From UHGV virus genome UHGV-0171787: 64,000 nucleotides of DNA; one strand, given 5' to 3'. Of the stretch, positions 34,029 to 43,506 are shown one piece after another. A model generated the notes under the pieces. It made no database searches, was not told the DNA's origin, and saw only the letters and a program-made list of their open reading frames with translations. Source of the DNA: a virus. Numbering within the stretch: position 1 is the first letter of the stretch; each line of letters opens with the position of its first letter. The position numbers and the translations under genes were made by a program.

Positions 34029-35873
34029 TTAGTGCGTATGCATCCAATTTAATCCAATCTGACAATCAGAAGCCAGAGGACATTCCATGTTCAAGTACTC
34101 ACCAGCCTTCTTAACACAAAGCTCAGTGTGCTCTTTGAGTTTCTGTACATCATTACGATTTACTGAGAATTGGCCCTCATCGTGCATATCAATTACCTTA
34201 GCACAACGAACCCCATCCTTCTCAATCCACTTGTTAAGGAACATCATAGCATATTTCATAACAACAGCACCAGCACATTGCAGGAGTGTGTTAAGGGCTT
34301 TATGAACCATAACTTTACCAGTGGCATCTCTTCTCATTGTAATCTTACGACCATCAACTCCAATCAAGTATCCTTGAGCAGCTTTCTCTGTCATACGATC
34401 AATGAGGATTGCAATACACGGGTTCTCTGCTAAGAAACGCGCTCGCATCACTGAACCTTCGTCAGCCCCACCACCTACAATTGAACCAAGCTTAGCATCA
34501 CCAGCACCGTAGTTGAATGCATAGATAAATGTCTTAGCGTTGTCACGAGTAGGAAGACCAGCAAGTTTCTGGTTGTGGGAGTGGATATCACCTTCAAGGA
34601 GAATATCACGATACATAACAGCAGAAGCTAAACCGCGTTCTGCCAGAGCTTTCTTAGCTGGGTTATTCTCTTCGATTGCTTCAGCAAGCATATCTCTACA
34701 CTCTTTGATGAGGTAGTGAGCGAGCATACGAAGTTCAAGTCCAGAACCATCATACCCTAAGAATATTTCTTTACCAGCGGGTATGTAATATTTGTAAGCA
34801 CCTACAGGTTTGTCTTTCTTCCCCGGCTTACCTTTCTCGTAAATTACGTTAGTACCTTTTCGTATATAACAATCATCAGGAACAACGTTAGTAATAACGA
34901 AAGGACGAGAGTGATCACTGTCTGAGTTATAGTCAGACTCAAACAAACTGCGACACTCATGACCAAACAAACCACGGGAGGGAATATTAACCACGATACG
35001 ATGTTTGAATCGAAAAGTCGGCGTAGCACAGCTGTTAGCTTCTGCCGAAAGTTTACCATCTTTGCGTTCCTTTGCTATGAGTCCGCTGATAAGGCCTAGC
35101 CTGTGAGCCGCTACAACACGTCTCTTAAGCAAACTTCCGACACTCCCTAGCTCACCCCCTAATCCTTCTTCAAGGGTCTCCTCGAGGTTTGTAGGAGCTG
35201 TAGGCCACTTGTTTGAGGTAGCTAGTGCTATCTTAATCTCGTCAAAAGTGATAGGCCTACGTCGGTTAGGATTTAAACCTAAACCAAATACATAAGCCTT
35301 CATGTAGTTCTTAGTCTTAAACCTAAAATGCTTCTCTAAGAACTTCCTGATATCAGCGTCAACCATCTCGGCTGTCTGCTTCTGTTTAGCATTACCTCGC
35401 ATCCAAGCTGAATACCATGCTTGGTATGTTCCATACTTTCTCATATCTTTCTTAATTTCAAAAGTATTCCAAGGCTTCTTAGATACGTTAAACTCTGGAG
35501 GAAGAAAGCCCTCATCCATAAGAGCTTCTTTAACTCGTGCATCCTTCGATGGGTCAAAGTCTACGTATTCGACACAGGTAAAAGCTCCACCAATGTCTTC
35601 TCTCTTCAGCCCAACCCTATCGCAATAAGCTTGAGGCCACTTCTGCAAAGCCCCAGACTTCTTAAATGGCTTCATATAAGTAGAGCCATCTAATCTCATC
35701 TTAGGTAAGAGAGGAATTAGTTCTTTATCAATATTAACAATAATCTCTTTAAGGAGGTGAACATACCACCGAGCATTTCTTCGGTTGAAACTCACTCCGT
35801 GCTTTGCTTGCTTAGAGATTATATCAGCGACAGTCATCTCTGTCAAAAATGGGAGAGCGTCCGGGTTGCTCAC
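34029..35873 (-). CDS. DNA polymerase, family A polymerase domain (no fused proofreading domain)
   Basis: 614 aa; motif A DGSGLELR, motif B RDNAKTFIYAFNYGAG, motif C HDEGQF. Confidence 0.85.
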   Translation of the reverse strand: MSNPDALPFLTEMTVADIISKQAKHGVSFNRRNARWYVHLLKEIIVNIDKELIPLLPKMRLDGSTYMKPFKKSGALQKWPQAYCDRVGLKREDIGGAFTCVEYVDFDPSKDARVKEALMDEGFLPPEFNVSKKPWNTFEIKKDMRKYGTYQAWYSAWMRGNAKQKQTAEMVDADIRKFLEKHFRFKTKNYMKAYVFGLGLNPNRRRPITFDEIKIALATSNKWPTAPTNLEETLEEGLGGELGSVGSLLKRRVVAAHRLGLISGLIAKERKDGKLSAEANSCATPTFRFKHRIVVNIPSRGLFGHECRSLFESDYNSDSDHSRPFVITNVVPDDCYIRKGTNVIYEKGKPGKKDKPVGAYKYYIPAGKEIFLGYDGSGLELRMLAHYLIKECRDMLAEAIEENNPAKKALAERGLASAVMYRDILLEGDIHSHNQKLAGLPTRDNAKTFIYAFNYGAGDAKLGSIVGGGADEGSVMRARFLAENPCIAILIDRMTEKAAQGYLIGVDGRKITMRRDATGKVMVHKALNTLLQCAGAVVMKYAMMFLNKWIEKDGVRCAKVIDMHDEGQFSVNRNDVQKLKEHTELCVKKAGEYLNMECPLASDCQIGLNWMHTH

Positions 35874-35889
35874 TTTATACTCCTTTAAA

Positions 35890-36294
35890 TTATTGGTAAA
35901 GTAAATCTGTAAATGCTTGATTGTCAGCTATTGCATCTAGGTCATTAGGAGATACTCGGATAGTGTTACCTTCAACTCTCCACGGAGTTGGCGTAGGTGA
36001 AGACCTAACTTCAAGAGGCTGCTCTCTGACTAGATGGGCCATGACCTCCTGATCGGCAACTTCCTCTCTTTCTCGAATATCTCTCTGGATGTAGGCCAGC
36101 TTCATGCCCCAAGCTTCTTCAAACTCTTGAGGGTGTTTATCACTGATCACTACATATCGACGATTGACGGAAAACCTTCTTGCTTTCAAAATAAGATTGC
36201 AAAGATCTTCTACTTCATCTTCTTCTAGGTTGTTATAAATATCATCCCACTTCACTACACAGAAGCGGTTTTGGTGTCTAGTTGGTAGTGGCAT
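35890..36294 (-). CDS. Hypothetical protein
   Basis: ORF track, 134 aa. Confidence 0.45.
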   Translation of the reverse strand: MPLPTRHQNRFCVVKWDDIYNNLEEDEVEDLCNLILKARRFSVNRRYVVISDKHPQEFEEAWGMKLAYIQRDIREREEVADQEVMAHLVREQPLEVRSSPTPTPWRVEGNTIRVSPNDLDAIADNQAFTDLLYQ

Positions 36295-36297
36295 AGC

Positions 36298-36582
36298 TTA
36301 ACCTTTCGGGAATGGCATTAAAGATTCCATAGCAGATTTAATTTCGCTATTGATTCGAGCATCACGATAAGAGATAAATTTACCTTTGCTATCACGTAAC
36401 ATTACATGGGTTCTGGCTGTTTCGTGAGGAAGCAGTGTGATACTGGTTGGGATAGTATCAATCCCTACAGGTAGTTTGTAAATAGTCTTACTCTCAGCTA
36501 GTAGGTAAGACCAAGTACATGGTTTCTTCTCCGGATGGTTAGGGTATGTATCTCTAATCTGAACCATAGCTAATTTATTCAT
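36298..36582 (-). CDS. Hypothetical protein, paralog pair member
   Basis: 94 aa; shares TARTxVxLRxxxGKFISY...PFPKG with the adjacent gene. Confidence 0.5.
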   Translation of the reverse strand: MNKLAMVQIRDTYPNHPEKKPCTWSYLLAESKTIYKLPVGIDTIPTSITLLPHETARTHVMLRDSKGKFISYRDARINSEIKSAMESLMPFPKG

Positions 36583-41624: not shown

Positions 41625-41645
41625 TCTTATTCCTTAGTTATTTGT

Positions 41646-42947
41646 TCACACTTCAAAAGAGAAACCGCGACCCGATTCATCGGCAAACCGAACTGTACGG
41701 GTTTGAGGTTCTAATACTTCAGGGTTGTTGGCAACAAATCTATCAGCGAGGCTATCTCCTAAATCCTCTATCACATCTTCATCAGTCCACACAGTCCTAA
41801 CCGGTACATCAAAGTCACCAGCAACAAAACCCTGACCGGAGAATTGACGTGCGCTGACAGTAAAGTCATTTGACCGACCACGAGAAGAACCAGTCATCCA
41901 CCGCTCTGTAGAACCGTTCGTAATACCAAGAGCCTCTTCAAAAGATGTTCTAGGATCGGGGCTTTCACTTCGTGACTCTTGTGCTCGACGCATTTCAGGG
42001 ACTGCAAACACCCCTTCCATTGTGTTGTGATGATTAGTCTCATCTTCCCGACCAAGTAGATCTCCACTTGTATTGGTTGTTAAGTTTGTCAACCCTTCAG
42101 ACCAATACGCACTAATCTGACTAGATCCATGAACACTTGACATTAACTGGATTTCTTCATAAGGGATTCCAAAGAATCGACTCATGTCACGATTAACACA
42201 ATACTGAGCACTTGTTGTATCCTCAACAAGAGCAACCTGACCCCATTCATTGATCAGATGACTGACCGGTTGAGGTGTGGGAAGATATCGAGATTGTGCC
42301 ATATATTGGTATGCAACAGATGGAGCGGAGAATCTTAATACCTGTGAATTAGGCCACTTCTTGTGAACATACTTGATTTCACGACCAGAAACAACTACTG
42401 GACAGGGGGAGGTCATAGCCAAATATCCATGAGGGGTCATGAATAGATTGTCAAGAGTAATCGCACCACGGCACATCATAGGAAAGCTGTCCAACACCTC
42501 TTCAATAGAAGTAGGATAGTTAAACATGAATTGGATACGAACCCCACTCCACTGGAACTCAATAATATCGGTAAATGTTAACAGAGATCCTTCAGCGTAG
42601 GCTTCATTCGTAGCTTCAGCAAGAAGGGAAGAGTACTCAATATCTTGAGACTCGAGCCACTCTTTCACGTTACTTTCAACCTCTCGTCCGAGATCTTGCC
42701 ACTGGTCATGGTGGATAAAGGTGTTTCGAGTTCTTGGGGCCTGTCCTCTGACAATAAAGATATCAATGTCATGAGGTGCTCTGTTATTAAGAACAGCATC
42801 ACGAACAGCCCCACCAGTGATGATGGGACAAATACAGTCTGGAATCAAGTTGTTGTTAATCAGCTGTTCAATGAAGTGACGACCAACAGCGATATCAGGT
42901 TGTTGAGCAACCTTATCTGCAATTCGGTTAATCGGGATAACAATCAT
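41646..42947 (-). CDS. Pol-beta superfamily nucleotidyltransferase (CCA-adding-enzyme-like head) with large unknown C-terminal region
   Basis: ATG at 42947 (MIVIPINR...); ITGGAVRDAVLNNRAPHDIDIFI matches the G[GS]..D.D head motif of tRNA nucleotidyltransferase / poly(A) polymerase. Confidence 0.5.
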   Translation of the reverse strand: MIVIPINRIADKVAQQPDIAVGRHFIEQLINNNLIPDCICPIITGGAVRDAVLNNRAPHDIDIFIVRGQAPRTRNTFIHHDQWQDLGREVESNVKEWLESQDIEYSSLLAEATNEAYAEGSLLTFTDIIEFQWSGVRIQFMFNYPTSIEEVLDSFPMMCRGAITLDNLFMTPHGYLAMTSPCPVVVSGREIKYVHKKWPNSQVLRFSAPSVAYQYMAQSRYLPTPQPVSHLINEWGQVALVEDTTSAQYCVNRDMSRFFGIPYEEIQLMSSVHGSSQISAYWSEGLTNLTTNTSGDLLGREDETNHHNTMEGVFAVPEMRRAQESRSESPDPRTSFEEALGITNGSTERWMTGSSRGRSNDFTVSARQFSGQGFVAGDFDVPVRTVWTDEDVIEDLGDSLADRFVANNPEVLEPQTRTVRFADESGRGFSFEV

Positions 42948-42948
42948 T

Positions 42949-43506
42949 TTACATTTTCCAATATAATGAAGGTGGGTCGTAAGGGTCAAATCCTGTGAGT
43001 TCACACAAGTATTTATAAACCTTAACAGTTAAATTAACGTCCTGTTCACAATAAGTAAACATATCCTCAGTGAAAGCATCCCATGCTTCCTCTTGCTCAC
43101 CGTAATCACCTTTAAGTTCCCCTAAGAACTCACCCCATTGCTTCAAGCCATGACCTCTTGGGCCATGTCTAGGGTCGCCTTTCGGGTACTCAGGACTGTC
43201 ACCAATACGGTCAGGTTTAAGATATCGACTAAGACATAAAGTGTCAAAGACGTTAAAACGATAGTTAATCAGATTGGGATACATCTTCTTCAGAGCACAA
43301 AGGTCGAAGTCAATAATATTGTGACCCACGAGCACATCTGCTTCTGTAAGTTTATGAATCCCATCTTCAATTTGGTGAGGCCGATAGCCCCACCTTTCAC
43401 CAGTTTCAACATCGAAAACATAAATACACCATACTTTGGTTATATCATCGTATAGTGCATTACTCTCAATATCGAATGCAAACACTTTCTTCTTTTTCTT
43501 TACCAC
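42949..43506 (-). CDS. Stand-alone 3'-5' proofreading exonuclease (DnaQ-like)
   Basis: 185 aa; Exo I FDIESN, Exo II HNIIDFD, Exo III YCEQDV. Confidence 0.75.

What the first reader, a model, noticed from the sequence alone, without database searches (positions are those of the whole stretch)
34029..43506. DNA polymerase split into separately encoded exonuclease and polymerase genes about 7 kb apart
The family-A polymerase gene (34029-35873) has motifs A, B and C but no Exo I-III motifs. A stand-alone 185-aa DnaQ-like exonuclease with all three Exo motifs is encoded at 42949-43506, separated from the polymerase by about 15 genes. Proofreading would therefore be supplied in trans, or by a partner that assembles with the polymerase.
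Basis: partly seen in the sequence, partly recalled or inferred. Interest (0 to 1): 0.5.

Follow-up and report, generated by a model that had tools for sequence, protein, structure and literature searches.

The report
Split T7-like phage DNA polymerase
This phiEco32-like E. coli phage encodes its T7-type DNA polymerase as two genes 7 kb apart, a proofreading exonuclease and a polymerase; the split is real, but it has been annotated and published for this phage group since 2008, so it is ordinary.

Summary
Both ORFs lie on the minus strand: a 614-aa family-A polymerase (34029-35873) and a 185-aa 3'-5' exonuclease (42949-43506). They are 7,075 nt and 16 ORFs apart. Joined end to end, they align continuously with T7 gp5: exo M185 pairs with T7 T205 and pol M1 with T7 F206. 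All catalytic residues are present. The polymerase has no trace of an exonuclease domain. The exonuclease folds like the T7 gp5 exo domain, not like an RNase.

The window is a Kuravirus (phiEco32-like podophage, about 90% nt identity). RefSeq already annotates phi32_53 as "DNA polymerase; lacks 5'-3' and 3'-5' exonuclease domains" and phi32_74 as "DNA polymerase exonuclease subunit". Papers from 2012 and 2023 describe the split for phiEco32, for the LUZ24 group and for all Kuravirus-like phages. An independent split in T7-like cyanophages was modelled as a preserved complex in 2023.

The most likely mechanism is a non-covalent two-subunit holoenzyme. This is inferred, not shown.

New details seen here:
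- A 64-95-aa helical insertion is found in every split-clade polymerase sampled and in none of the fused ones.
- A 253-nt ORF-less group I intron interrupts the adjacent primase/helicase gene and is absent from 80 of 81 relatives.

Verdict: already known, low interest.

The parts
34029..35873 (-). Polymerase subunit: 614 aa, family A, T7-like, polymerase domain only. Orthologue of phiEco32 gp53.
   Evidence: ORF. Pfam DNA_pol_A at residues 361-611. PDB sequence match to T7 gp5, E=1.7e-32. AF2 mean pLDDT 91.8; best fold hits are T7 gp5. An AGGAG Shine-Dalgarno sequence lies 6 nt before the GTG. phiEco32 annotation: 'lacks 5'-3' and 3'-5' exonuclease domains'.
42949..43506 (-). 3'-5' proofreading exonuclease subunit: 185 aa, DEDDy. 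Orthologue of phiEco32 gp74.
   Evidence: ORF. Pfam PF01612. PHROG 'DNA polymerase exonuclease subunit'. Aligns with T7 gp5 residues 3-182, E=9e-12. AF2 mean pLDDT 93.2. Top 27 fold hits are T7 gp5. Catalytic residues are invariant in 47 homologues. The GTG start overlaps the primase/helicase stop codon by 7 nt, and a GGAG lies 7 nt upstream.
35199..35483 (-). Codons 131-225 of the polymerase: a helical insertion absent from T7 gp5 and from fused relatives. It falls after T7 residue about 357, which I recall as the thumb region.
   Evidence: Alignment with T7, VP4, P0116 and P0119. 64-95 residues in all 54 polymerase-only sequences (the window's own and 53 relatives), against 2-8 residues in all 7 fused relatives. 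Predicted as five helices at pLDDT about 90. No Pfam or PDB sequence match.
34767..34913 (-). Codons 321-369 of the polymerase: a beta-rich insertion just before motif A. Also absent from fused relatives.
   Evidence: (14-53 residues in split forms, 4 in fused forms).
43500..45543 (-). T7 gp4-like primase/helicase gene immediately upstream of the exonuclease gene and overlapping it. Exon 1 is 45543-44296, the group I intron 44295-44043, and exon 2 44042-43500.
   Evidence: The uninterrupted 596-aa phiEco32 protein gives the exon junction. PHROG_239 positions 37-449 and 451-611 match the two exons. Rfam RF00028, 86.3 bits.
39410..39682 (-). Phage-encoded thioredoxin (90 aa, CAPC motif), lying between the two polymerase genes. 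A candidate processivity partner by analogy with T7; this was not tested.
   Evidence: Pfam Thioredoxin, E=4.2e-13. The hypothesis is published for the relative Privateer (PMC7881722).
29683..30504 (-). Separately encoded 5'-3' exonuclease (273 aa), the third detached PolI-type activity.
   Evidence: PHROG_107 'exonuclease', E=6e-64. Pfam 5_3_exonuc_N, E=6.6e-6, below the gathering cut-off. PMC9965538 lists a separate 5'-3' exonuclease in YF01.

Best explanation
The phage makes a T7 gp5-type replicative DNA polymerase from two polypeptides. The ancestral gene was cut in the linker between the exonuclease and polymerase domains, at T7 residues 205/206. The exonuclease half stayed directly downstream of the gp4-like primase/helicase gene, overlapping it by 7 nt. 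Nucleotide-metabolism genes (nucleotidyltransferase, dCTP deaminase, Dps-like protein, thioredoxin, ThyX, PhoH and others) accumulated between the halves.

The 185-aa DEDDy exonuclease most likely docks non-covalently on the polymerase subunit at the same interface as in T7 gp5 and proofreads the primer terminus. The result would be a heterodimeric core working with the primase/helicase, and possibly with the phage thioredoxin.

Shown here: the split, its exact collinearity, intact active sites, the predicted folds, and conservation of the arrangement. Inferred: physical association and proofreading.
For: - Collinearity. The exonuclease plus polymerase concatenate aligns end to end with T7 gp5, VP4 DNAP and two fused metagenomic polymerases. 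The junction falls at T7 205/206. The PHROG_17 profile coordinates are contiguous.
- Active sites. Exo D12/E14/D68/Y152/D156 and pol D375/D565/Y451 match the T7 residues and are invariant or nearly so in 47 and 61 homologues.
- Folds. Both AF2 models have pLDDT above 91, and their best PDB matches are T7 DNA polymerase.
- Conserved gene order (primase/helicase, then exo, then cargo genes, then pol, all on one strand). Seen in phiEco32 and SU10, in Aeromonas phage APT65 (exo 49% identical, 9.6-kb gap) and in the LUZ24-like phage JD05 (1.9-kb gap). Fused relatives show primase/helicase followed by a single DNAP gene (VP4, CHOED, P0116).
- Literature. [quoted passage not shown] PMC3517423 describes the LUZ24 group and cites Savalia 2008 for phiEco32. 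In PMC10201439, an AF2 complex of an independently split T7-like PolA superposes on an unsplit one, and PolAs are said to need the exo domain for stability.
Against: - There is no direct evidence of a complex for this or any Kuravirus.
- In phiEco32, two gp36-dependent promoters (upstream of genes 68 and 58) lie between the genes, so the two subunits need not be made in equal amounts.
- From general knowledge: the Klenow exonuclease and polymerase domains can act independently in vitro, so action in trans is possible in principle.
Confidence: 0.8

Rival explanations
1. The 185-aa exonuclease is a free-standing nuclease used for something else, such as host DNA degradation, recombination or repair. 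The polymerase would then work as an exonuclease-less enzyme, with at most diffusible editing in trans.
For: The genes are 7 kb apart, with promoters between them in phiEco32. No interaction data exist. The polymerase carries clade-specific insertions that might stabilise it on its own.
Against: The junction with the polymerase is exact. The exonuclease gene has kept the T7 gene-5 position next to the primase/helicase across distant genera. Its closest fold and sequence relatives are polymerase-embedded exo domains, not free nucleases. Every split-clade genome examined here carries both genes, and the literature extends this to the whole Kuravirus-like group and its close relatives. An independently split T7-like PolA is predicted to keep the interface.
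Confidence: 0.15
2. The split is only apparent. Either the polymerase keeps a degenerate exo domain in its N-terminal 300 or so residues, or the two ORFs are joined by frameshifting, splicing or an assembly error.
For: The polymerase has about 370 residues before motif A, more than Klenow. A group I intron is present in the neighbouring gene.
Against: The extra length is explained by the thumb/TBD-equivalent region plus two insertions. The N-terminus aligns to T7 residue 206 onward, and the exo HMM finds nothing. Sixteen ORFs separate the halves, and six of them have Pfam, PHROG or annotation-based assignments: nucleotidyltransferase, dCTP deaminase, ThyX, PhoH, thioredoxin and a Dps-like protein. 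The arrangement recurs in more than 100 independently sequenced phage genomes. Rfam finds only one intron in the window, and it is in the helicase gene.
Confidence: 0.02

Closest known systems
phiEco32 gp53 (DNA polymerase) and gp74 (DNA polymerase exonuclease subunit), with their orthologues in all Kuravirus / Gordonclarkvirinae phages
   Same: Orthologous genes with the same lengths, same order and same strand. Nucleotide identity is about 90% across the region. The exonuclease is 95-97% identical in amino acids and the polymerase 99% identical to that of Shigella phage SGF2. The split is annotated in RefSeq and described in PMC9965538.
   Different: Nothing relevant to the finding. This genome has 16 rather than 20 intervening ORFs, and it carries a group I intron in the neighbouring primase/helicase gene that phiEco32 lacks.
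LUZ24-like Pseudomonas phages (Bruynoghevirus): 'DNA polymerase part I / part II'
   Same: The same split at the exo/pol boundary, with the same order (primase/helicase, exo, small genes, pol) and the same upstream amidoligase, GATase, ATP-grasp and gamma-glutamyl cyclotransferase genes. The polymerase is about 40% identical and carries the same thumb insertion. The split was noted in PMC3517423.
   Different: The gap is only about 1.9 kb, and the polymerase is shorter (545 aa; insertion of about 65 aa, and no insertion after motif A).
Bacteriophage T7 gp5 DNA polymerase (with thioredoxin and the gp4 primase/helicase)
   Same: Closest solved structure for both halves. The catalytic residues match, including Y526. 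The gene sits downstream of a gp4-like primase/helicase.
   Different: T7 gp5 is a single 704-aa chain. The region equivalent to the T7 thioredoxin-binding domain is shorter here. The polymerase has three insertions that T7 lacks. Overall identity is 31-33%.
S-SBP1-like T7-like cyanophages with split PolA (Czernecki et al. 2023, PMC10201439)
   Same: The exo and pol domains of a T7-like PolA are encoded as two genes. An AF2 complex model indicates that the interface is preserved.
   Different: That is an independent and recent fission by a +1 frameshift, and the genes remain adjacent and overlapping. Here the halves are 7 kb apart, and the split is old enough to be shared by several genera.
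E. coli Pol III alpha-epsilon; family D DP1/DP2; PhiKZ split family-B polymerase (PMC13648687)
   Same: The polymerase and proofreading functions, or the N- and C-terminal halves, are separate polypeptides that assemble into one enzyme (for PhiKZ; the other two from general knowledge).
   Different: These belong to different polymerase families and have unrelated interfaces. The similarity is analogy only.

Membership tests
Family A DNA polymerase, T7-like subfamily | Motif A (D..LE.R) with the catalytic Asp | tested here: met
   GYDGSGLELR. D375/E380/R382 align with T7 D475/E480/R482 and are invariant in 61 sequences.
Family A DNA polymerase, T7-like subfamily | Motif B (R...K...Y..YG), with Tyr at the position of T7 Y526 | tested here: met
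   RDNAKTFIYAFNYG. R443/K447/Y451/Y455 align with T7 R518/K522/Y526/Y530. PMC10201439 gives this Tyr as typical of the T7-like cluster.
Family A DNA polymerase, T7-like subfamily | Motif C (HDE) with the second catalytic Asp | tested here: met
   H564-D565-E566 align with T7 H653-D654-E655 and are invariant.
Family A DNA polymerase, T7-like subfamily | Pfam PF00476 above the gathering score, and closest solved fold is T7 gp5 | tested here: met
   82.3 bits against a cut-off of 34.3. Foldseek top 27 hits are T7 gp5, E about 1e-25.
Family A DNA polymerase, T7-like subfamily | N-terminal 3'-5' exonuclease domain on the same chain | tested here: not met
   The polymerase starts at the equivalent of T7 F206. 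The exo HMM scores -1.2 bits. This is the split itself.
DEDDy 3'-5' exonuclease (PolA-type, PF01612) | Exo I DxE, Exo II Nx(2-3)[FY]D, Exo III Yx3D | tested here: met
   D12-I-E14, N63...F67-D68 and Y152...D156 align with T7 D5/E7, N60/D65 and Y170/D174. They are invariant or at least 90% conserved in 47 homologues.
DEDDy 3'-5' exonuclease (PolA-type, PF01612) | Pfam hit above the gathering score, and RNase H-like exonuclease fold | tested here: met
   36.2 bits against a cut-off of 23.6. AF2 pLDDT 93.2. Best fold matches are the T7 gp5 exo domain.
DEDDy 3'-5' exonuclease (PolA-type, PF01612) | 3'-5' exonuclease activity on mismatched primer termini | not testable with these tools
   Needs an enzyme assay.
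Two-subunit (split) T7-like PolA holoenzyme | The two gene products together cover the full-length enzyme with no gap or overlap | tested here: met
   Exo M185 aligns with T7 T205 and pol M1 with T7 F206. PHROG_17 positions 667-826 and 836-1233.
Two-subunit (split) T7-like PolA holoenzyme | Both genes co-occur in every genome of the clade | tested here: met
   phiEco32, SU10, APT65, JD05 and VTCCBPA_211. The literature reports it for all Kuravirus-like phages, 7-11, Privateer, Vp_R1 and BUCT695.
Two-subunit (split) T7-like PolA holoenzyme | Physical association of the two subunits | not testable with these tools
It is supported only by analogy with the S-SBP1 AF2 complex.
DnaQ / Pol III epsilon (DEDDh) or RNase T / oligoribonuclease | Exo III motif Hx4D, and closest relatives being free-standing DnaQ or RNase T proteins | tested here: not met
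   Exo III is YCEQD. RNase T appears only at rank 39 or lower in the fold search, with 12% identity. No RNase_T Pfam hit.

The most novel reading that the evidence does not exclude
The 64-95-aa helical module inserted in the region aligned with the T7 thumb (codons 131-225) is found in all 54 polymerase-only sequences sampled (the window's own and 53 relatives) and in none of the 7 fused relatives. It may be an acquired docking or tethering platform. It could hold the detached exonuclease subunit, or the phage's own thioredoxin, in place of the covalent linker. Together with the promoters lying between the two genes, this would let the phage set the exonuclease:polymerase ratio, and so replication fidelity or strand displacement, during infection. 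The evidence here cannot separate this from a neutral insertion that simply marks the clade. The independently split S-SBP1 enzyme apparently needs no such insertion.
Probability: 0.12. Interest if true: 0.45.

Novelty: already known. Interest (0 to 1): 0.12.

Why it matters
The finding matters little as a discovery. The split is annotated in RefSeq for phiEco32 and described in several papers. It remains a useful natural example of a family-A replicase assembled from separate proofreading and polymerase subunits, and no split PolA of this clade appears to have been characterised biochemically. Reconstituting one would show how the exo-pol interface survives without a linker, whether fidelity can be tuned by subunit ratio, and what the clade-specific thumb insertion does.

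Tried and rejected
The interface could therefore not be modelled.
- Savalia et al. 2008 (PMC2587145) is not held. Its content is cited only through PMC3517423.
- The idea that the polymerase hides a degenerate exo domain was rejected.
- The idea that the 185-aa protein is an RNase T, oligoribonuclease or DnaQ-type enzyme was rejected.
- Searches with the thumb insertion and the pre-motif-A insertion alone found nothing in Pfam at E up to 10. PDB gave only chance-level matches for the thumb insertion.
- I considered whether the perfect sigma-70 consensus inside the polymerase ORF bears on expression of the split genes. The surrounding DNA is about 100% identical in relatives, so its conservation says nothing. 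I left it as a side note.
- I considered an intron- or intein-mediated join of the two halves. The only Rfam hit in the window is the helicase intron.

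
Full report
**What the window is.** The region 34029-43506 matches 108 phage records. 59 of them cover at least 80% of it at 90-95% nucleotide identity, and all the top matches are phiEco32-like E. coli podophages (Kuravirus, Gordonclarkvirinae). The polymerase is 99% identical in protein sequence to that of Shigella phage SGF2.

- On the minus strand there is a 614-codon ORF at 34029-35873 and a 185-codon ORF at 42949-43506, both starting with GTG.
- Each is preceded by a Shine-Dalgarno sequence: AGGAG 6 nt before the polymerase start, and GGAG 7 nt before the exonuclease start.
- The two ORFs are separated by 7,075 nt holding 16 minus-strand ORFs. These include a nucleotidyltransferase, dCTP deaminase, a Dps/ferritin-like protein, thioredoxin, ThyX, a stand-alone NAD-ligase Ia domain and PhoH.

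**The polymerase has no exonuclease domain.**
- Pfam finds only DNA_pol_A, at residues 361-611 (82.3 bits).
- The only strong PDB sequence matches are T7 DNA polymerase (E=1.7e-32).
- In a MAFFT alignment with T7 gp5, Vibrio phage VP4 DNAP and two fused metagenomic relatives, the polymerase starts at the equivalent of T7 F206.
- Motif A D375/E380/R382, motif B R443/K447/Y451/Y455, motif C H564-D565-E566 and the C-terminal H614 align with T7 D475/E480/R482, R518/K522/Y526/Y530, H653-D654-E655 and H704. All are invariant among 61 relatives.
- A profile built from 47 stand-alone exonucleases scores -1.2 bits on the polymerase with all filters off.
- The AF2 model (pLDDT 91.8) has T7 gp5 as its 27 best PDB fold matches.

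**The 185-aa protein is a polymerase-type proofreading exonuclease.**
- It matches Pfam DNA_pol_A_exo1 above threshold and the PHROG families named 'DNA polymerase exonuclease subunit'.
- Its only PDB sequence matches are residues 3-182 of T7 gp5 (E=9e-12).
- D12/E14, N63/D68 and Y152/D156 align with T7 D5/E7, N60/D65 and Y170/D174.
- D12, E14, H62, N63, D68 and D156 are invariant in 47 stand-alone homologues that reach down to 31% identity, and Y152 is at least 90% conserved.
- The AF2 model (pLDDT 93.2) has T7 gp5 as its 27 best fold hits. RNase T, TREX1 and exonuclease I appear only at E about 3e-5 with 10-14% identity.

The second refutation test, an unrelated RNase, also fails. With YxxxD in Exo III it is a DEDDy enzyme, 'DnaQ-like' only at superfamily level.

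**The two ORFs are exact halves of one ancestral gene.**
- Exo M185 aligns with T7 T205 and pol M1 with T7 F206, so nothing is missing or duplicated.
- In the full-length PHROG_17 polymerase profile, the exonuclease covers positions 667-826 and the polymerase 836-1233.
- The cut lies in the inter-domain linker.
- Identity to T7 gp5 is 33% for the exonuclease half and 31% for the polymerase half.

**The arrangement is old and conserved.** All the split genomes below keep the order primase/helicase, exonuclease, cargo genes, polymerase on one strand.

| Genome | State | Gap between exo and pol |
|---|---|---|
| phiEco32, SU10 | split | 8.0 kb, 8.6 kb |
| Aeromonas phage APT65 (exo 49% identical) | split | 9.6 kb |
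| LUZ24-like Pseudomonas phage JD05 | split | 1.9 kb |
| Vibrio phage VP4, Vibrio phage CHOED, metagenomic P0116 | fused | single DNAP gene after the primase/helicase |

- JD05 also shares the upstream amidoligase, GATase, ATP-grasp and gamma-glutamyl cyclotransferase genes.
- In the protein database the polymerase-only form (about 490-620 aa, PF00476 alone) dominates the best 120 hits. Fused forms first appear at about 39-44% identity.
- All stand-alone exonuclease relatives are 100-250 aa.
- The likely history, which is inferred: a T7-like gene 5 was cut at the domain boundary in a common ancestor of these genera. The exonuclease half stayed next to gene 4, and cargo genes accumulated in the gap.

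**Mechanism.** The best-supported reading is a non-covalent exonuclease-polymerase heterodimer that reconstitutes the T7 gp5 architecture and edits the primer end. The supporting evidence:
- the exact collinearity of the two halves;
- strict retention of the catalytic residues;
- co-occurrence of both genes in every genome examined;
- the 7-nt overlap of the exonuclease start with the primase/helicase stop;
- published work on an independent split in S-SBP1-like T7-like cyanophages, where an AF2 complex of the two products superposes on an unsplit homologue;
- the statement by the same authors that PolAs need the exo domain for stability (PMC10201439).

What is not shown is association, activity or stoichiometry. 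In phiEco32, gp36-dependent promoters lie upstream of genes 68 and 58, between gp74 and gp53 (PMC8948821). The two subunits may therefore be expressed differently.

**Comparison with what is known.**
- RefSeq annotates phiEco32 phi32_53 as 'DNA polymerase; lacks 5'-3' and 3'-5' exonuclease domains' and phi32_74 as 'DNA polymerase exonuclease subunit; contains 3'-5' exonuclease domain'.
[quoted passage not shown] 2008.
- PMC9965538 (2023) says phage YF01 has a polymerase with separately encoded 5'-3' and 3'-5' exonuclease subunits. [quoted passage not shown]
- The window also holds the separate 5'-3' exonuclease at 29683-30504.

The finding is therefore already known.

**Details that may be new.**
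- All 54 polymerase-only sequences in my alignment (the window's own and 53 relatives) carry a 64-95-aa insertion at polymerase residues 131-225. It is predicted as five helices and falls after T7 residue about 357.
- Most of them also carry a 14-53-aa insertion before motif A.
- All 7 fused relatives have 2-8 and 4 residues at those two sites.
- The thumb insertion has no Pfam or PDB sequence match.
- It may be a docking surface for the detached exonuclease or for the phage thioredoxin, or it may simply mark the clade. The data cannot tell these apart.

**Side findings.**
- *Intron in the primase/helicase gene.* The gene upstream of the exonuclease is interrupted by a 253-nt ORF-less group I intron at 44043-44295 on the minus strand (Rfam RF00028, 86.3 bits, E=1.5e-22). 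The exon junction follows from the uninterrupted phiEco32 protein and from contiguous PHROG_239 coordinates. Of 81 related records, 80 have contiguous exons. One (VTCCBPA_211) has a longer insertion at the same site with a 176-aa ORF.
- *Promoter-like sequence inside the polymerase ORF.* The only perfect extended sigma-70 consensus in the 64-kb window lies in codons 10-19 of the polymerase ORF.

Noticed in passing
window 44043-44295 (minus strand), inside the primase/helicase gene 43500-45543: A 253-nt ORF-less group I intron (Rfam RF00028, 86.3 bits) splits the primase/helicase gene after ...YDNFG. The exons rejoin exactly to the phiEco32 protein sequence. 80 of 81 related phage records lack it. 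VTCCBPA_211 has an insertion of about 740 nt at the same site with a 176-aa ORF, probably a homing endonuclease.
   Followed up: yes
window 35818-35846 (minus strand), codons 10-19 of the polymerase ORF: A perfect extended sigma-70 promoter consensus (TTGACA, 17 nt, TGaTATAAT). It is the only 12/12 match in the 64-kb window, where 0.05 are expected. It is identical in phiEco32 and SU10, but the surrounding DNA is identical too, so this says nothing. Its function, if any, is unknown.
   Followed up: partly
window 35199-35483 and 34767-34913 (polymerase codons 131-225 and 321-369): Two insertions relative to T7 gp5. The first is present in all 54 polymerase-only sequences sampled and the second in most of them; both are absent from all 7 fused exo+pol relatives. 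The first is a confidently predicted five-helix module with no Pfam or PDB sequence match.
   Followed up: partly
relatives P0014-P0017, P0081-P0083 and P0101 (Aeromonas phage BUCT695); phage 172-1, annotated 'DNA polymerase (x2)': In some relatives the polymerase gene itself is called as a 437-460-aa product covering only the first 72-74% of this polymerase. The gene is therefore further interrupted, near residue 450 between motifs A and B. It is intact in this window.
   Followed up: no
window 39410-39682 (minus strand): A phage-encoded 90-aa thioredoxin with a CAPC active site lies between the two polymerase genes. The region equivalent to the T7 thioredoxin-binding domain is shorter than in T7. 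A role in processivity has been proposed for the relative Privateer (PMC7881722) but is untested.
   Followed up: partly
window 38184-38513 (minus strand): A 109-aa ORF consists only of the N-terminal Ia (NAD+-binding) domain of NAD-dependent DNA ligase (Pfam Nlig-Ia, E=1.5e-35). Relatives annotate it as 'DNA ligase', but it lacks the adenylation and OB domains.
   Followed up: no
window 39204-39413 and 40889-41116 (minus strand): Two small ORFs in the gap between the exonuclease and polymerase genes are paralogues (33% identity over 51 aa, E=3e-5). Their function is unknown.
   Followed up: partly
window 43500-43560 (minus strand), C-terminus of the primase/helicase: The helicase ends in an acidic stretch with a terminal aromatic residue (...[11 protein letters not shown]...GASPW). 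From memory, this resembles the acidic, Phe-terminated tail of T7 gp4 that binds gp5/thioredoxin. Its stop codon overlaps the exonuclease start by 7 nt.
   Followed up: no
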